Assembly (NCBI RefSeq): GCF_009931435.1 | Contig: NZ_CP043414.1 | Reading direction: 5' to 3' (one strand) | DNA: 64,000 bases | Source: Escherichia coli | GTDB taxonomy: Bacteria; Pseudomonadota; Gammaproteobacteria; Enterobacterales; Enterobacteriaceae | In this document: positions 27,930 to 33,536 of the stretch, in pieces | Layout of the letters: the number at the start of each line of letters is the position of its first letter | How positions within the stretch are numbered: position 1 is the first letter of the stretch | The notes under the pieces: model-generated | What the model saw: only the letters and a program-made list of their open reading frames with translations | Told to the model about the DNA's origin: nothing | The model's database searches: none | Program-made: the position numbers and the translations under genes

Positions 27930-29432
27930 TTATTCATCAATTCGCGGATGTTGCTGCACCAGGCGGGTACGTTTCGCCTGCAAATCGGCAATCTCGTGGT
28001 CAATATCATCGATTTTCTGCTCGATATTATCGTAATGCTCGACGAGAATTTCCTTCGCTTCCTGTATATCTGACGCCGCCGGTGTCGCACCTTTCAACGG
28101 ACGATTCGCCGTCTCTTTCATGGTTACGCCGGTGATTAAACCAACCACCGCCACTACCATCAGGTAATAGGCAGGCATCATCAGATTCTGCGAGCTTTCG
28201 ACCAGCCAGGCCGCCAACGTTGGCGTCAGACCGGCAACCAGCACCGAAATATTAAATGCCGCCGCCAGCGCGCTGTAACGGATATGCGTCGGGAACATCG
28301 CTGGCAAGGTAGAAGCCATAACGCCCGTGAAGCAGTTAAGGATCACCGCCAGCATCAGTAACCCGGCAAAAATCAGGCCGATGACGTTACTGTTAATCAG
28401 AATAAACGCCGGGATCGCCAACACAAACAGTGCAACACTACCAAGTAGCACAAACGGACGACGGCCAAAACGGTCACTCAGCAAGCCCATCACCGGCTGG
28501 ACAAACAGCATACCGATCATAATGGCGATAATAATCAGCACCCCGTGGTCTTCGGAGTAATGCAGGTTATGCGACAAATAACTCGGCATATAGGTCAGCA
28601 ACATGTAGTAAGTCACGTTGGTGGCAATTACCAGACCAATACATGTCAACAGGCTGCGCCAGTATTTAGTGGCAATCTCTTTAAACGAGACTTTCGGACC
28701 ATCCTGCAAACCTTCGCGGTCGCCCTGTTCCAGTTTATCAACATGCTGCTGGAACGCCGGAGTTTCTTCCAGCGCATGGCGCAGGTAAAGCCCGATAATC
28801 CCTAACGGCAGAGCAATAAAGAACGGAATACGCCAGCCCCAGTCGAGGAAGTTCGCTTCGCCGACAATGGTCGAAATTAACACCACCACGCCCGCACCCA
28901 GCACAAACCCGGCAATAGAACCGAAGTCCAGCCAGCTGCCCATAAAGCCACGTTTACGGTCAGGGGAGTATTCCGCAACAAATATCGACGCCCCGGTATA
29001 TTCACCGCCGACCGAGAAACCTTGTGCCATCTTACAGATCAACAGCAGAATCGGTGCCCAAATACCAATCGTGTCGTAGGACGGTATTAAACCAATACAG
29101 AACGTACTGATCGACATAATCACAATAGTGATAGCGAGGATCTTCTGGCGACCATATTTATCGCCCAACATACCAAAGAAGAGTCCGCCAAGCGGTCGAA
29201 TCAGAAAGGGAACGGAGAAAGTGGCAAGTGCAGCAACCATCTGCACGCTGGGGTCAGCCCCCGGGAAAAAAACTTTACCTAATGCGTAAGCAACAAAACC
29301 ATAAACACCAAAATCGAACCATTCCATTGCATTACCCAGTGATGCTGCGGTAATGGCTTTACGCAGTTTACCGTCATCAATAATAGTGACATCACGAAGG
29401 GTAATCGGTTTTACTTTTTTCCTTTTCAGCAT
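27930..29432 (-). CDS. proP: Proline/glycine betaine:H+ symporter (osmosensory MFS transporter)
   Basis: 500 aa from the ATG at 29432 (MLKRKKVKPITLRDVTIIDDGKLRKAI...); C-terminal coiled-coil tail; the ORF-track start at 29465 is an extension. Confidence 0.95.
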   Translation of the reverse strand: MLKRKKVKPITLRDVTIIDDGKLRKAITAASLGNAMEWFDFGVYGFVAYALGKVFFPGADPSVQMVAALATFSVPFLIRPLGGLFFGMLGDKYGRQKILAITIVIMSISTFCIGLIPSYDTIGIWAPILLLICKMAQGFSVGGEYTGASIFVAEYSPDRKRGFMGSWLDFGSIAGFVLGAGVVVLISTIVGEANFLDWGWRIPFFIALPLGIIGLYLRHALEETPAFQQHVDKLEQGDREGLQDGPKVSFKEIATKYWRSLLTCIGLVIATNVTYYMLLTYMPSYLSHNLHYSEDHGVLIIIAIMIGMLFVQPVMGLLSDRFGRRPFVLLGSVALFVLAIPAFILINSNVIGLIFAGLLMLAVILNCFTGVMASTLPAMFPTHIRYSALAAAFNISVLVAGLTPTLAAWLVESSQNLMMPAYYLMVVAVVGLITGVTMKETANRPLKGATPAASDIQEAKEILVEHYDNIEQKIDDIDHEIADLQAKRTRLVQQHPRIDE

Positions 29433-29695
29433 AGCTTTCCTCGCAGAGTTGGCCCATTTCCGCAAACGCCAGAAAAATCAGCGCGACGGCCGCAAAAGGG
29501 GAGCGGGAATTGCAGGATGCAATCTCTGTAACAAGCGTAGCGGGTTTGCTTACACCCTCCGGTTAAGGAATGTACAATCAAACCAGTTGACGCCTGAATT
29601 GGGCAGTTAATGAGCTTTTTACCCTACCAGTGTTTAAATTTGTGATCAACTTCACACATGGTTTTCGTTTAGGAGTCATTGATGTAACTGATTAT

Positions 29696-30574
29696 TTACA
29701 CCAAATTTACAGAGAAGATTTCCTCGACCATTGCCCCCGCCAGACGCTGCGCTGAACAGAGTCGTGGCATCCCCAGTGCGACAGTTTGCCAGCGTTGGGT
29801 CACTGACCAGCAAACGGGTTGTTTATCTGCCGTGGACCACTTTCCCAGCCAACTTAAAAAATCAGCATGATCCCCACCCGTCGGGGCGGTTGAAGAGGTA
29901 AACCACTGATGGTAATAGTGACGAGTGGTCGTTGCCGCATTAATACTCTCTGCCAGATGTTGTGTCGCTTTCACGCGCAAATCATCAAGCAACAACGCCA
30001 CCGCTTGCGGGCTTCCCAGACGGCAGGCATCGCCAAATGCCCCCCAGCGCAACTCCTCCAGAACGATAAAACAGCGCCCAGGCAACGACCAGGCGTTATA
30101 CGCACCAGCACGCCAGCGGGTAAAAATTTGCTCACTCTGATCACCGGCCTGTACCAGTAATCCTCGTTGCGTTAACGCCTTTTCCTTCCAGCGACAACGG
30201 GCTGAAAACAACTCATACAAGGCGGCAATTTGCTGGGGGAGCTCCGGGAAAGCAGAGTGCTGGCGGTGATCCATTTTTTGCAGCAGCGCCAGATGCTGCG
30301 CGATCTGCGTCAGCGCCAGATGACCGGGATCCAGCATCGACGCCAGTTTTTCCACCAATGTCAGACGCAGGCTAAGCGGCGCATTTAACATGCCGCCGTT
30401 CGTCCATGACTGAAGCTGTACGCGCGCAAGAAGTTCCTGCATCAGTCGTTCACGAAACTGCTGCTGATGGGCTTGTGGATGGCGGGCATCATCGCCCTGC
30501 GCCAGATCCACTAAAAAGCGGGGATGAATCGACTCCAGCACACGACCGGGGCCGTCAAGTAACGTCTTGGTCAA
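29696..30574 (-). CDS. yjcZ: Uncharacterised protein YjcZ
   Basis: 292-aa ORF overlapping the crfC stop by 4 nt; matches YjcZ. Confidence 0.8.
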   Translation of the reverse strand: MTKTLLDGPGRVLESIHPRFLVDLAQGDDARHPQAHQQQFRERLMQELLARVQLQSWTNGGMLNAPLSLRLTLVEKLASMLDPGHLALTQIAQHLALLQKMDHRQHSAFPELPQQIAALYELFSARCRWKEKALTQRGLLVQAGDQSEQIFTRWRAGAYNAWSLPGRCFIVLEELRWGAFGDACRLGSPQAVALLLDDLRVKATQHLAESINAATTTRHYYHQWFTSSTAPTGGDHADFLSWLGKWSTADKQPVCWSVTQRWQTVALGMPRLCSAQRLAGAMVEEIFSVNLV

Positions 30575-32799
30575 TATCGTTCTGCCGTGAAAAGTGTTTG
30601 AATATCATCGCGTAACAGCTGAGCGTCGATGTAAATCCAGCCATGAGTCATCACAGTCTGCTGCAATTGCTGCTGCATCAGCCTGACCACCGATTCATTT
30701 TGTTGACGCAGAGCCAGACTTTCGCGTAAACGCGTCTGTAATTCCGTCAAACATGAAGCAAACTCAGCGAAAAAAGTATTCATGCCTGCCGTAACAGATT
30801 CATCGACCTGCTCTGCCAGAACTTTAGCCATTTGTTGGCAATAAAGATCGACTTCTGCGCTTAATGCTCGTTGCAACGCACTGTAATCAACCGTCTCTAT
30901 CGGGGATTTCTCATTTCCCCGTCCCCAGTCGGGCTGATTCAACCAGCGCGAAAAAGTCTCACGCACAACGCCTAAACGCGTGCTCTGCTCGTCCATTGCG
31001 TCCTGGCGCGAAATGACTTCACTGAACAGCTGGCGAGTGTTGAAGTGGGGAACTGCGCCGTGAAAAACAGGAAAATGAAACCCAGAACGAAACCCTGACT
31101 CGCTCAATTCCATTTTGACTTGTTGCTCAATGGGCCGAATAACATCGGTTAACACCCGGCAAAGAGTGGATTCAAGCTCGGCAAAACGCAGCGTAAAGTC
31201 GCGACTGATGGTGTTCTGCGCCGTCTGTAACAGTGTCTCACAGCAGGTACGAATCTCGCTTAATGACCCCGAATCATCCTGAAACAACGCGGCTAACTGG
31301 GCATTCACCGCATCTTGCTGTTGACGCAGAAAGAGGTTGGCGGAGGTCAGGGCCAGCTCGATTTCATGTTTAATCTCGCCGCTCACCTGAGCCTGATTGA
31401 GTTGAAATAGCTGCAAACTTTCTTCGATCTGGTGGATATTTTGCCGCAATTGTTCACAAGCGACGTTTAACCCGTGCGCACGAAAATCCAGGTATTCCCG
31501 CGCCTGCTGCGCGTAATTCAACAGTTTATGCGCGGCAGATCGCAGAGCATACAACGAGGCGTTAGCGTAAGCGGCATGAAGCAACGCCTGAATTGGCTGG
31601 GCGAACAGCGAATCTTCCCACAACTGATCGGCAGCATGACGAATATGTTCGAGGTCCGCCAGGTCGGCATGACGCCAGCGCCTGCCGAGCGCGGCATGGG
31701 CAAAATCTTCCACCCAGCGTTGTTGCTCTGGCGCGGGTAACTTACCGTTGTTGGCTAACTCATTACGCGCCCGATTCGCCAGGTAGCCCCACATCGACGA
31801 CACTGGAAATATCTGCTGTGGCGTAATACAGCCTTTCATCAGCGTCCCGGAAATCAGTGCCCGCACCTGGTCGGCGTCGTCACTGTTACGATCCTGTTGA
31901 TCGAACTTATTGACCAGCACATACAGCGGCACCGATTGCCCCACCGCCAAAATCGCCTCACGGACCTCGTCATCGGAGATCGATTTCAGTTGCGTATAAT
32001 CCAGCACCGCCAGTACCGCCGAGGCGCGAGCCAGCTGCTGGTTAAGCATTTTTTGCAGATGCGGTTGCCCGGCTTCATTTGGCCCAGGGGTATCCAGTAA
32101 CGTCAACTGACCGGGATAACTCTCCAGCCCCGCCAGATGGACAAACTCCACTTCAATCACGGGAATATGCTCAATGGCGGCGTAAGCAGAAAAAGGAAAA
32201 TCGACGTCCAGCGCCTTCGCCAGTCGCACCAAATCATTCAAACTTTTCAGACAATGAAAAATAGGCTGGGCACCCAGATAATATTTTTCGAAAGCGACGC
32301 CATTTTCGATCCGCTGCATAAGCGCACGCATATCTTTATCTATTTCCAGCACATCGGTCAGATGCTTAATATCGCAGTCACGCAGGCGCTGTTGTAATTG
32401 TTGAATTAAACAGTCGATTGGCGCGACATGTGAAAAATGCAGTACCGGTTCTTTTTGCCCGGGCGTATGACGAATAAGCGTCGGCAGCGCAGTCATTGGG
32501 CGATTGCGATTAGGCAGAACCTCCGTACCAACAATGGCATTAATGGTGGTTGATTTCCCTGCTTTCATAGTACCGACAATCGCCAGCACCATTTCCAGTC
32601 GGGAAATTTTACGCAACTCATTATTCAGCATCGCGTGACGTTCGGCGATATTAGGCTGACTCCAGGGTAAAGCCAGTTGTGGCGCATCGTCTCCGGGTAC
32701 AGAGAGAGGCATTTTTTCCAGTAACTGCAACTGTTGGCGAGAAAGCTGTAACAGGCGTTCAGCCTCCTGACTTAACTCATACAGGGTCTGTGTGTACAT
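30571..32799 (-). CDS. crfC: Dynamin-like large GTPase CrfC/YjdA
   Basis: 742-aa ORF with P-loop GTPase motif (GTMKAGKST) near the N-terminus and long coiled-coil-rich remainder. Confidence 0.85.
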   Translation of the reverse strand: MYTQTLYELSQEAERLLQLSRQQLQLLEKMPLSVPGDDAPQLALPWSQPNIAERHAMLNNELRKISRLEMVLAIVGTMKAGKSTTINAIVGTEVLPNRNRPMTALPTLIRHTPGQKEPVLHFSHVAPIDCLIQQLQQRLRDCDIKHLTDVLEIDKDMRALMQRIENGVAFEKYYLGAQPIFHCLKSLNDLVRLAKALDVDFPFSAYAAIEHIPVIEVEFVHLAGLESYPGQLTLLDTPGPNEAGQPHLQKMLNQQLARASAVLAVLDYTQLKSISDDEVREAILAVGQSVPLYVLVNKFDQQDRNSDDADQVRALISGTLMKGCITPQQIFPVSSMWGYLANRARNELANNGKLPAPEQQRWVEDFAHAALGRRWRHADLADLEHIRHAADQLWEDSLFAQPIQALLHAAYANASLYALRSAAHKLLNYAQQAREYLDFRAHGLNVACEQLRQNIHQIEESLQLFQLNQAQVSGEIKHEIELALTSANLFLRQQQDAVNAQLAALFQDDSGSLSEIRTCCETLLQTAQNTISRDFTLRFAELESTLCRVLTDVIRPIEQQVKMELSESGFRSGFHFPVFHGAVPHFNTRQLFSEVISRQDAMDEQSTRLGVVRETFSRWLNQPDWGRGNEKSPIETVDYSALQRALSAEVDLYCQQMAKVLAEQVDESVTAGMNTFFAEFASCLTELQTRLRESLALRQQNESVVRLMQQQLQQTVMTHGWIYIDAQLLRDDIQTLFTAERY

Positions 32800-33200
32800 A
32801 GAAAATTTTTCCTTAAAGCAAATTTTATTACTTTTATTTAGCCAGATTGTTTTTGAGTTCTGTTTTCGGCTTTTATAATTACTGCAAGAAATAATTTTAT
32901 ATTTAGAGTGTTGTTTTTTATTAGAATAAATAACGTCTTCCGATACGTTTAAAACGTCAGAAAGATAAAAATATCATTTGAATTAAAAAAAGAACAAGTA
33001 GAGCATTAACCTTATCTTAAATAATAAATGGAGGCAAAAAGATTATTTTCTTTTTGCGTTTCCTTTCAAATGAAAACGATCGTCGTCTAAAATCAGCAGT
33101 ACCCCCGACAAACTCAGGGATTTTGTGTATAATTGCGGCCTTTTTCGGCAATCTGCCGTTTTTTGGCGCTTTTGCCCTGCTGACTTTTGAGGAAATCCAC

Positions 33201-33536
33201 ATGTCATTACCACACTGCCCAAAATGCAACTCCGAATACACCTACGAAGATAACGGCATGTACATCTGCCCGGAATGTGCCTACGAATGGAACGACGTAG
33301 AACCTGCACAGGAAAGCGACGAGCTGATCGTTAAAGATGCTAACGGCAATCTGCTGGCTGACGGCGACAGCGTTACCATCATTAAAGATCTGAAGGTGAA
33401 AGGTAGCTCTTCGATGCTGAAGATCGGTACCAAAGTGAAAAACATTCGCCTGGTTGAAGGCGACCACAACATCGATTGCAAAATCGACGGTTTTGGTCCG
33501 ATGAAACTGAAATCTGAGTTTGTGAAAAAGAACTGA
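33201..33536 (+). CDS. phnA: Zinc-ribbon protein PhnA/YjdM
   Basis: 111 aa from the ATG at 33201 ([31 protein letters not shown]...); CxxC...CxxC zinc ribbon; extended -10 (tgtgtataat) about 70 bp upstream. Confidence 0.9.

What the first reader, a model, noticed from the sequence alone, without database searches (positions are those of the whole stretch)
29696..32799. crfC-yjcZ: dynamin-like GTPase gene pair with a poorly characterised partner
A 742-aa P-loop GTPase with a long coiled-coil-rich C-terminus is translationally coupled (4-nt overlap) to the 292-aa YjcZ, which has no obvious catalytic motif. The pair is flanked by AT-rich intergenic DNA on the crfC side. The function of YjcZ and any joint role remain unclear from sequence.
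Basis: partly seen in the sequence, partly recalled or inferred. Interest (0 to 1): 0.3.

Follow-up and report, generated by a model that had tools for sequence, protein, structure and literature searches.

The report
Known RdcA–RdcB (CrfC–YjcZ) GTPase pair
This is the ordinary E. coli crfC–yjcZ operon, already characterised under the names rdcA–rdcB as a dynamin-like GTPase and its partner that together switch on the biofilm enzyme DgcE, so the sequence reading is correct but the pair is no longer a mystery.

Summary
A 742-aa dynamin-like GTPase gene (30571..32799, minus strand) overlaps a 292-aa YjcZ gene (29696..30574) by 4 nt (TTGA). A 401-bp, 31% GC spacer lies on the crfC side.

The claim that the function is unclear is out of date. 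K-12 RefSeq names the genes rdcA and rdcB. Pfiffer et al. 2019 showed that both are needed to activate the diguanylate cyclase DgcE, and that RdcA binds RdcB and the MASE1 domain of DgcE.

It transcribes yjcZ separately, so the two genes are not linked by translational coupling alone.

New here:
- YjcZ follows a CrfC-type GTPase in all 80 Enterobacteriaceae loci fetched, and 75 of them have the 4-nt overlap.
- The promoter motif is conserved at synonymous sites.
- The clamp-binding motif QLALP occurs only in E. coli proper.
- YjcZ gives a confident all-helical model with no solved relative.
- A sister clade of the YjcZ family sits in three-gene operons (dynamin-like GTPase, YjcZ-like, patatin phospholipase). 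These occur on islands and plasmids, in about 48% of E. coli genomes, and I found no study of them. This module is not in the window.

Verdict: already known, low interest.

The parts
30571..32799 (-). crfC / yjdA / rdcA: 742-aa dynamin-like GTPase
   Evidence: ORF. NCBIfam NF007368 'clamp-binding protein CrfC' equivalog scores 1580 bits against a cut-off of 1146. Pfam Dynamin_N covers residues 72-279. 97.8% nt identity to K-12 rdcA b4109, with 18 aa differences.
29696..30574 (-). yjcZ / rdcB: 292-aa all-helical partner protein, TTG start
   Evidence: ORF. Pfam PF13990 YjcZ scores 468 bits. 96.1% nt identity to K-12 rdcB b4110, with 16 aa differences and the same TTG start. AF2 model with a 106-sequence alignment: pLDDT 90.8, pTM 0.91.
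30571..30574 (-). TTGA overlap: crfC stop TGA and yjcZ start TTG
   Evidence: Sequence. The homologous junction is ATGA in 69 loci by direct count, plus 3 more on re-inspection, and TTGA in the 3 Escherichia loci.
30799..30826 (-). Sigma-28 (FliA) promoter inside crfC that drives yjcZ: TAAAGTTC-N11-GTCGATGA-A, 225 nt upstream of the yjcZ start
   Evidence: 28/28 match to the ChIP-seq motif '(yjdA)yjcZ' of Fitzgerald 2014. FliA-dependent lacZ activity is reported in bioRxiv 188474. The motif is kept at the homologous site in most of the 80 loci, and synonymous codon choices are unusually fixed.
32548..32574 (-). P-loop (G1) GTMKAGKST, residues 76-84, including K82
   Evidence: Invariant in 78 of 79 orthologues. 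The K82A and T103D phenotypes are published in PMC6510439.
32665..32679 (-). Beta-clamp-binding motif 41-QLALP-45
   Evidence: The motif is defined in PMC6374313. It is not conserved outside E. coli proper.
30032..30058 (-). YjcZ family signature EELRWGAFG, residues 173-181
   Evidence: L175, W177, G178 and G181 are at least 95% conserved across 95-106 family members at 17-47% identity.
32800..33200 (.). AT-rich divergent intergenic region between crfC and yjdM; the crfC promoter is not mapped
   Evidence: GC 0.312. A sigma-70-like TTGAAA-16-AATAAT lies at 33069..33042 (-) as a consensus match only. Divergent yjdM synteny is kept in distant two-gene loci L097-L099.
29433..29695 (.). yjcZ-proP spacer, with no convincing terminator directly after yjcZ
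   Evidence: One search finds only a weak stem-loop at 29494..29482, about 200 nt downstream of the yjcZ stop near the proP start. A 'yjcZ-proP' transcription unit is listed in PMC4066584.

Best explanation
The locus is the E. coli rdcA-rdcB (crfC/yjdA-yjcZ) operon.

Shown by others: RdcA is a soluble dynamin-like GTPase that self-associates and binds RdcB. RdcA and RdcB together are required to activate the membrane diguanylate cyclase DgcE. RdcA docks on the N-terminal MASE1 domain of DgcE. A GTP-locked variant (T103D) is inactive, while a variant that cannot bind nucleotide (K82A) is active. This suggests the GTP-free form is the activator and that the fall in cellular GTP at entry into stationary phase is the input signal. 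The output is c-di-GMP, then PdeR/DgcM/MlrA, then csgD, then curli and cellulose.

Shown here: the two genes are an obligate, tightly coupled pair. YjcZ always sits next to the GTPase, the stop/start overlap is conserved, and the GTPase motifs are invariant.

Shown by others and confirmed in sequence here: yjcZ has a second, independent supply from a sigma-28 promoter inside crfC. This ties RdcB dosage to the flagellar regulon.

Inferred: RdcB is a non-catalytic, all-helical regulatory subunit. It probably binds the divergent helical C-terminal half of RdcA and sets how much active complex forms. Extra sigma-28-driven RdcB in motile post-exponential cells would prime the switch from motility to biofilm.
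For: - Identity: NCBIfam CrfC equivalog 1580 bits, Pfam YjcZ 468 bits. K-12 RefSeq names are rdcA and rdcB. The locus is present in 5417 of 5426 complete E. coli genomes.
- Function: PMC6510439 reports genetics, epistasis, c-di-GMP levels, two-hybrid interactions RdcA-RdcB and RdcA-DgcE(MASE1), and the K82A and T103D alleles. The residues K82 and T103 are present in the window protein.
- Pairing: 80 of 80 loci have the GTPase upstream. 75 of 80 have a 4-nt overlap. Pairwise divergences of the two proteins correlate at r = 0.94 (shared phylogeny inflates this value).
- GTPase motifs G1, G2, G3 and G4 are invariant in 79 orthologues.
- Sigma-28 promoter: exact motif; ChIP-seq and RNA-seq, with yjcZ falling from 52 to 1 in a fliA deletion; a FliA-dependent fusion. 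Synonymous-site conservation: K659 AAA in 68 of 71, D666 GAT in 73 of 77, both below the 2nd percentile of codon entropy among 412 conserved columns. The spacer codons are ordinary.
- RdcB is non-catalytic: no Pfam domain other than YjcZ, and no family-wide polar catalytic set. The fold is all-helical.
Against: - The molecular role of RdcB is not known. No interface was modelled here, and the GTP-sensing step is a published proposal, not a measurement.
- RdcB did not bind DgcE in the published two-hybrid assay, so why it is required is unexplained.
- CrfC also has a published, separate role in nucleoid partition through the beta-clamp.
- A yjcZ deletion had no motility phenotype in an otherwise wild-type strain.
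- I could not test whether dgcE co-occurs with rdcAB across genera.
- yjdA read counts also fall tenfold in a fliA deletion although no FliA site lies upstream. The transcription of crfC itself is therefore not understood.
Confidence: 0.78

Rival explanations
1. The main conserved job of the locus is chromosome partition. CrfC oligomers bind the beta-clamp through 41-QLALP and hold sister forks together. YjcZ is then an unrelated passenger or a helper in that process.
For: Published CrfC work reports clamp binding, anucleate cells in crfC deletion and Q41A mutants, and nucleoid-pole foci (PMC6374313). NCBIfam names the family 'clamp-binding protein CrfC'. The QLALP motif is present in the window.
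Against: The motif with its essential Q41 is absent from the other Escherichia species sampled (PLTLP) and from 15 other genera shown (VLPLH and similar). The GTPase motifs and the YjcZ partner are conserved throughout. The CrfC paper never mentions yjcZ. Pfiffer et al. note that most in vivo evidence came from plasmid expression and that growth is unaffected in the mutant. This role may still exist in E. coli as a lineage-specific second job.
Confidence: 0.12
2. The pair is a membrane-remodelling or anti-phage dynamin system of the LeoABC/Eleos or DynA kind, with YjcZ as an adaptor. DgcE activation would then be a side effect.
For: There are weak PADLOC matches of CrfC to LeoBC (E 3.9e-6) and LeoA (E 5.7e-5). 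The sister clade of the family is coupled to a patatin phospholipase with an intact Ser-Asp dyad, on islands and plasmids.
Against: The PADLOC matches are partial and well below a family-level score, and YjcZ matches nothing. The window has no patatin gene and no second dynamin gene. The locus is a core gene in a fixed chromosomal position, with yjdM synteny, in 5417 of 5426 genomes. Published work describes RdcA as soluble and lacking a membrane-binding element.
Confidence: 0.07
3. The two genes are merely adjacent, and the overlap is a chance product of compact gene packing.
For: Four-base overlaps are common in bacterial operons, and yjcZ has its own promoter.
Against: Co-occurrence is 80 of 80, adjacency is conserved down to 17-30% identity, and a two-hybrid interaction and identical mutant phenotypes are published.
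Confidence: 0.01

Closest known systems
RdcA/RdcB (YjdA/YjcZ, b4109/b4110) of E. coli K-12, regulators of diguanylate cyclase DgcE (Pfiffer et al. 2019, PMC6510439)
   Same: Same genes, same lengths (742 and 292 aa), same TTG start and TTGA overlap, same neighbours (yjdM, proP), same internal sigma-28 motif, and K82 and T103 present.
   Different: An allelic variant. There are 18 aa changes in RdcA (all after residue 276) and 16 in RdcB. Most E. coli genomes are 95-99% identical over the locus and only 6 are at least 99% identical.
CrfC, the clamp-binding dynamin-like nucleoid partition factor (Ozaki et al. 2013; PMC6374313)
   Same: The same protein under another name. The 41-QLALP motif is present.
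   Different: The clamp motif is confined to E. coli proper among the 79 orthologues examined, so this is not the property that defines the wider family.
Bacterial dynamin-like proteins with solved structures: Nostoc BDLP (2J68), Campylobacter jejuni DLP1/DLP2 (5OWV)
   Same: Dynamin-type G domain followed by a long helical region. They are often encoded as operon pairs (for sequence similarity; the operon pairing is from my own knowledge).
   Different: Sequence similarity is limited to about 55 residues around the P-loop (E 2.6e-6 at best). The partner here is a 292-aa non-GTPase helical protein, not a second dynamin. Published work reports no membrane paddle.
Accessory operon of dynamin family protein, RdcB family protein and patatin-like phospholipase, found in E. 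coli islands and enterobacterial plasmids (uncharacterised)
   Same: The GTPase is 44% identical to CrfC over residues 1-481 and the YjcZ-like protein about 30% identical. Gene order is the same and the junctions overlap.
   Different: It has a third gene, a patatin with GASIG and DG[AG] motifs. It is mobile and present in 2615 of 5426 E. coli genomes and 44 plasmids. It has no sigma-28 motif, no QLALP and no yjdM neighbour, and it is absent from this window.
LeoA/LeoBC ('Dynamins'/Eleos) anti-phage system
   Same: Dynamin-family GTPases encoded together.
   Different: Only weak partial matches (24 and 20 bits). YjcZ has no counterpart, and PADLOC models do not recognise a system.

Membership tests
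Dynamin superfamily / bacterial dynamin-like protein (CrfC) | Dynamin-type G domain with G1 GxxxxGK[ST], G2 Thr, G3 DxxG and G4 [NT]KxD | tested here: met
   GTMKAGKST, T103, DTPG and NKFD. Pfam Dynamin_N 66.5 bits against a cut-off of 27. The motifs are invariant in 79 orthologues.
Dynamin superfamily / bacterial dynamin-like protein (CrfC) | Helical stalk/neck region after the G domain | tested here: inconclusive
   Only a crude heptad score was run: 48 positive windows against 5.4 +/- 6.3 in shuffles, in residues 435-701. No structure model of CrfC was made.
Dynamin superfamily / bacterial dynamin-like protein (CrfC) | GTP hydrolysis and nucleotide-dependent self-assembly | not testable with these tools
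   Reported in the literature. It cannot be tested from sequence.
Dynamin superfamily / bacterial dynamin-like protein (CrfC) | Membrane-binding paddle or transmembrane element | not tested
   The literature states that CrfC/RdcA lacks one and is soluble. I ran no hydrophobicity analysis.
CrfC equivalog (NCBIfam NF007368) | Full-length match above the curated cut-off | tested here: met
   1580.4 bits against a cut-off of 1146, covering 1-742 of 742.
CrfC equivalog (NCBIfam NF007368) | Beta-clamp-binding motif 41-QLALP with Q41 | tested here: met
   QLALP at 32665..32679. It is absent from orthologues outside E. coli proper.
YjcZ / RdcB family (Pfam PF13990) | Full-length match to the family model | tested here: met
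   468.3 bits against a cut-off of 27, profile positions 1-272 of 272. The signature LxWGxFG is present.
RdcA/RdcB system | GTPase gene immediately upstream of the YjcZ gene in one operon | tested here: met
   4-nt overlap in the window. 80 of 80 related loci have this arrangement.
RdcA/RdcB system | Physical RdcA-RdcB complex, and RdcA binding to the MASE1 domain of DgcE | not testable with these tools
   Published two-hybrid data only.
RdcA/RdcB system | Target DgcE present in the same genome | not tested
FliA (sigma-28) regulon promoter | TAAAGTTT-N11-GCCGATAA-type motif at a site bound by FliA | tested here: met
   13 of 16 matches to the consensus, and 28 of 28 identity to the ChIP-seq-defined site in K-12. 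FliA binding itself is published, not tested here.
LeoA/LeoBC (Eleos/Dynamins) defence system | Family-level match to LeoA and LeoBC models with both components present | tested here: not met
   24.3 and 20.4 bits, partial matches. YjcZ has no match.
Three-gene module: dynamin-like GTPase, YjcZ-like protein, patatin | [quoted passage not shown] | tested here: not met
   tblastn with three patatins finds nothing in the window or in the 80 Enterobacteriaceae loci. The gene downstream of yjcZ is proP.

The most novel reading that the evidence does not exclude
The dynamin-like GTPase plus YjcZ pair may be a portable, nucleotide-gated module that switches on a membrane-acting effector. On this reading, the chromosomal rdcAB operon is the version wired to a diguanylate cyclase (DgcE). 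Its sister clade is wired to a patatin phospholipase encoded as an overlapping third gene. That clade occurs on genomic islands and conjugative plasmids, in about half of E. coli genomes, and I found no study of it. It could be a new GTPase-controlled lipase system for defence, competition or membrane repair. RdcB-like proteins would be the adaptor that couples GTPase state to the effector. One lineage (L082) keeps YjcZ and patatin but replaces the GTPase with a fused N-terminal domain, which fits that adaptor role.
Probability: 0.3. Interest if true: 0.55.

Novelty: already known. Interest (0 to 1): 0.22.

Why it matters
For the window itself, little changes. The genes are core E. coli genes with an experimentally supported role linking GTP level and the flagellar regulon to c-di-GMP and biofilm matrix. 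Their current official names already say so.

The follow-up does add points that specialists could use:
1. The RdcA-RdcB partnership and the internal sigma-28 promoter are conserved across many enterobacterial genera, whereas the clamp-binding motif is not. This bears on the published disagreement over the primary function of CrfC/RdcA.
2. RdcB has a confidently predicted all-helical fold with no solved relative, so a structure would be informative.
3. The family has a large sister branch coupled to patatin phospholipases on mobile elements, on which I found no published work. Studying it could show what RdcB-type proteins actually do.

Tried and rejected
- **Metal or redox site in YjcZ.** C168, C184, H219 and C273 are invariant in 19 Enterobacteriaceae sequences. 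They are replaced by hydrophobic residues in most of the wider family: C184 in 29 of 95, H219 in 17 of 95. Rejected as a family feature.
- **Sigma-28 promoter upstream of crfC.** A -10-like GCCGAAAA lies at 32870..32863 (-), read. It has a poor -35, and a strict TAAA-N14-16-GCCGATAA search finds nothing. Fitzgerald et al. state that the upstream prediction was wrong.
- **PADLOC defence models.** No system was recognised for either the core pair or the accessory module.
- **Rfam on 29300..33300.** No match.
- **NtrC control.** A weak ChIP peak labelled 'yjcZ-proP' had a negative gel-shift result in the source paper. Not pursued.
- **Reverse co-occurrence (is CrfC ever found without YjcZ?).** A search with the C-terminal half of CrfC returned mostly E. 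coli fragments, 59 hits in the same genera. It was uninformative.
- **Direction of evolution between the two-gene and three-gene forms.** Midpoint rooting puts them as sister clades, and the basal two-gene members lack patatin. The question of loss versus gain of patatin is unresolved.
- **Model of the complex.** Not attempted. It would need a hand-built fused alignment, and the tool reports no coordinates or inter-chain error.
Full report
**1. Observation**

The junction reads CGA-TAT-TGA, with TTG-ACC in the next frame. The crfC stop and the yjcZ start therefore share four bases, TTGA. The yjcZ start codon is TTG, as in K-12.

The larger protein has a complete dynamin-type G domain: GTMKAGKST, T103, DTPG and NKFD. 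Pfam Dynamin_N scores 66.5 bits. It matches the NCBIfam equivalog 'clamp-binding protein CrfC' end to end, at 1580 bits against a cut-off of 1146. The smaller protein matches only Pfam PF13990 'YjcZ' (468 bits).

The crfC-yjdM spacer (32800..33200) has GC 0.312, against 0.519 for the window. A crude heptad score supports a periodic helical C-terminal half of CrfC, with 48 positive windows against 5.4 +/- 6.3 in shuffles. I did not run a real coiled-coil predictor. Rfam finds nothing in 29300..33300.

**2. Identity**

The 3.7-kb locus is present in 5417 of 5426 complete E. coli genomes. It is usually 95-99% identical and is annotated crfC plus rdcB, next to proP. In K-12 MG1655 RefSeq the genes are b4109 'regulator of diguanylate cyclase RdcA' and b4110 'regulator of diguanylate cyclase RdcB', with the same lengths and overlap. 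The window alleles differ from K-12 at 18 of 742 and 16 of 292 residues. proP next door is 99.2% identical in DNA.

**3. What is already known**

*Pfiffer, Sarenko, Possling and Hengge 2019 (PMC6510439).*
- Deleting rdcA and/or rdcB phenocopies a dgcE deletion for macrocolony matrix, CsgD, csgB::lacZ and c-di-GMP, and the effects are not additive.
- In two-hybrid assays RdcA binds itself, RdcB, and the MASE1 domain of DgcE.
- RdcB binds neither itself nor DgcE.
- RdcA K82A complements the deletion, while T103D does not and loses DgcE binding.
- They propose that the GTP-free RdcA/RdcB complex aligns two DgcE molecules, and that falling GTP at entry into stationary phase is the signal.
- The lead came from Girgis et al. 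[quoted passage not shown]

*Fitzgerald et al. 2014 (PMC4183435).* They mapped a FliA site inside yjdA that drives yjcZ. The motif is TAAAGTTCTGGCAGAGCAGGTCGATGAA, and yjcZ RNA falls from 52 to 1 in a fliA deletion. [quoted passage not shown] A follow-up confirmed FliA-dependent activity of the fusion.

*The Katayama group* describes the same protein as CrfC, a clamp-binding (41-QLALP) nucleoid partition factor (PMC6374313).

*GlnZ.* An sRNA study reports RIL-seq chimeras of GlnZ near the rdcB ribosome-binding site.

**4. The internal promoter in this window**

The 28-nt FliA motif is present without a mismatch at 30799..30826 (-), 225 nt upstream of the yjcZ TTG. It lies in codons 658-667 (..KVLAEQVD..).

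At the homologous position most of the 80 related loci carry TAAAG[CT]TT-N11-GTCGAT[GA]. The most divergent genera (Atlantibacter, Franconibacter, Trabulsiella, Superficieibacter) do not.

I ranked codon entropy among the 412 crfC columns where the amino acid is conserved:
- K659 is AAA in 68 of 71 (1.7th percentile).
- D666 is GAT in 73 of 77 (1.9th percentile).
- A660 GCT and V665 GTC are near the 16th percentile.
- L661 is TTR in 66 of 72.
- The spacer codon A663 and the flanking codons sit near the median.

This is what selection on a DNA motif, over and above the protein, would give. It is an argument from ranks within one gene, not a formal test. The motif is absent from the basal two-gene loci and from the three-gene clade.

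**5. Co-occurrence**

A scan of one genome per species (100,044 species) with a YjcZ alignment found 111 loci, of which 80 were fetched. All 80 are Enterobacteriaceae or mislabelled records: Escherichia, Citrobacter, Enterobacter, Kosakonia, Phytobacter, Lelliottia, Leclercia, Pseudescherichia, Silvania, Huaxiibacter, Trabulsiella, Pluralibacter, Superficieibacter, Yokenella, Atlantibacter and Franconibacter. None of the 80 is Salmonella or Klebsiella. The pattern-based scan cannot prove absence there.

All 80 have a CrfC homologue (53-92% identity) ending at the YjcZ start on the same strand. The junction is:
- ATGA in 69 loci by direct count, and in 3 more on inspection;
- TTGA in the 3 Escherichia loci;
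- a 2-nt gap in 4 loci;
- GTGATGA in 1 locus.

Pairwise divergences of the two proteins correlate at r = 0.94 (shared phylogeny inflates this value).

**6. Which features of CrfC are conserved**

The four GTPase motifs are invariant in 79 orthologues. The G domain (residues 61-340) averages 83% identity to non-Escherichia orthologues. Residues 481-600 average 42%.

The clamp motif is not conserved. Escherichia sp. E1V33 and E. whittamii have PLTLP, so the essential Q41 is lost. Other genera have VLPLH, VQPLH, IHPLH or gaps.

This favours the view that the RdcA/RdcB partnership is the family's conserved function and that clamp binding is an addition in E. coli proper. It does not disprove clamp binding through other sequences.

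**7. YjcZ/RdcB itself**

An exhaustive profile search of 1.84 billion representatives gives 260 hits at E <= 1e-3, many of them about 300 aa long at 17-47% identity. Family-wide conserved positions are R43, W154, G157, R167, L175-x-W177-G178-x-F180-G181, R218, W224, P253, P270, R277 and E285. The Cys and His residues that are invariant in Enterobacteriaceae are not conserved across the family.

With 19 sequences AlphaFold2 gave pLDDT 66.6. With 106 sequences it gave pLDDT 90.8 and pTM 0.91, an all-helical protein of about 15 helices plus a two-residue bridge.

**8. A sister branch with a third gene (outside the window)**

Every distant family member whose context I could read is followed by an overlapping patatin-like phospholipase gene. 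All but one are preceded by a Dynamin_N gene of 794-902 aa.

| Locus | Notes |
|---|---|
| L081, L083-85 | short contigs, upstream gene cut off |
| L087/88 | upstream GTPase-like gene 756+ aa, cut off in L088 |
| context of P0227 | no DNA fetched |
| L090 | Ottowia MAG; third gene is patatin at E 4e-29 |
| L092 | |
| L093/94 | |

The exception is L082. There, a DUF3944/Ubiq_cyt_C_chap-like region is fused to the YjcZ domain and no GTPase is present.

The patatins keep GxSxG (GASIG) and DG[AG].

One such module is in E. coli itself. A 2975-bp probe hits 2615 of 5426 complete genomes. RefSeq annotates it as dynamin family protein, RdcB family protein and patatin-like phospholipase family protein. 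In strain SK1144 it lies in an island with antirestriction, yeeS/T and cbeA/cbtA genes. Related copies occur on 44 plasmids, 16 of them conjugative, and on no phage record.

Its GTPase is 44% identical to CrfC over residues 1-481. PADLOC does not recognise it. The only paper I found that mentions it does so in passing.

The window has no such module.

In a midpoint-rooted neighbour-joining tree, the two-gene (yjdM-syntenic) and three-gene forms are sister clades. The basal two-gene members L097 and L098/99 also lack patatin and keep the divergent yjdM. Which form is ancestral is unresolved.

**9. Mechanism I commit to**

Shown by others: RdcA and RdcB form a complex that activates DgcE through MASE1 when RdcA is not GTP-locked.

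Shown here: the pairing, the overlap and the GTPase motifs are conserved, and the separate sigma-28 supply of RdcB is under selection in most genera.

Inferred: RdcB is a non-catalytic helical subunit that binds the fast-evolving C-terminal half of RdcA and limits or tunes the amount of active complex. Sigma-28-driven RdcB would couple the end of the flagellar programme to c-di-GMP production.

I give the overall account 0.78. The specific role of RdcB deserves much less, perhaps 0.4.

**10. Verdict**

The finding is already known and its interest is low. The most novel reading left open concerns the three-gene relatives, not this locus.

Noticed in passing
L089:7361-11714 (E. coli SK1144); also L081-L094; not in the window: An apparently unstudied three-gene operon of a dynamin-like GTPase, a YjcZ/RdcB-like protein and a patatin phospholipase, with overlapping junctions and an intact Ser-Asp dyad. 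It is present in 2615 of 5426 complete E. coli genomes, on 44 plasmids and in Beta- and Gammaproteobacteria metagenome contigs. PADLOC does not recognise it.
   Followed up: partly
window 32665..32679 (-); alignment of 79 CrfC orthologues: The published beta-clamp-binding motif 41-QLALP is confined to E. coli proper. Other Escherichia species sampled have PLTLP and other genera have VLPLH or similar. The GTPase motifs are invariant throughout.
   Followed up: yes
window 30572..30574 (-); L001-L080 junctions: Escherichia uses a TTG start for yjcZ (TTGA overlap), whereas about 72 loci from other genera use ATGA. The upstream Shine-Dalgarno sequence is weak. This suggests lower or more coupling-dependent RdcB translation in Escherichia.
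   Followed up: partly
L097:2219-4564 (metagenome contig, yjdM-syntenic two-gene locus): A basal CrfC homologue (29% identity, E 1e-80) has lost all GTPase motifs: ATPNAKQSS for the P-loop, LEMPA for DTPG and VDHRD for NKFD. It still overlaps a YjcZ homologue by 4 nt. This natural pseudo-GTPase pair fits the published finding that nucleotide-free RdcA K82A is active.
   Followed up: partly
window 30781..30783 (-): The in-frame Met673 codon of crfC lies 16 nt downstream of the internal sigma-28 -10 element and is Met in 74 of 79 orthologues. If used on the sigma-28 transcript, it would give a 70-aa CrfC C-terminal peptide ending at the TTGA junction. That could deliver ribosomes to the weak yjcZ start. 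This is pure speculation.
   Followed up: no
window 29696..32799 compared with K-12 (L096): The locus is more divergent from K-12 than its neighbour proP: rdcB 96.1% and rdcA 97.8% against proP 99.2% nt identity. The share of amino-acid changes is high (nonsynonymous:synonymous codon differences 16:17 in rdcB and 18:29 in rdcA). All 18 RdcA changes lie after residue 276.
   Followed up: partly
L082:6001-8630 (1.4-Mb metagenome contig, downstream of parE-parC): A 532-aa protein fuses DUF3944 and a Ubiq_cyt_C_chap-like region to a YjcZ domain. A patatin gene follows with a 4-nt overlap, and there is no dynamin-like gene. The YjcZ-patatin link therefore persists without the GTPase.
   Followed up: no
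window 32800..33200 and 33201..33536 (+): Divergent yjdM (zinc-ribbon protein) is the neighbour of crfC here and also in distant two-gene loci L097-L099. The AT-rich spacer holds a sigma-70-like TTGAAA-16-AATAAT at 33069..33042 (-). The promoter of crfC itself is unmapped, and yjdA reads still drop tenfold in a fliA deletion with no upstream FliA site.
   Followed up: no
window 29433..29695: There is no convincing intrinsic terminator directly after yjcZ. One paper lists a yjcZ-proP transcription unit with a weak NtrC ChIP peak and a negative gel shift. Other peaks in that list (flgMN, fliC) are at flagellar genes I know to be FliA-controlled, so the signal may reflect polymerase occupancy rather than NtrC.
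   Followed up: no
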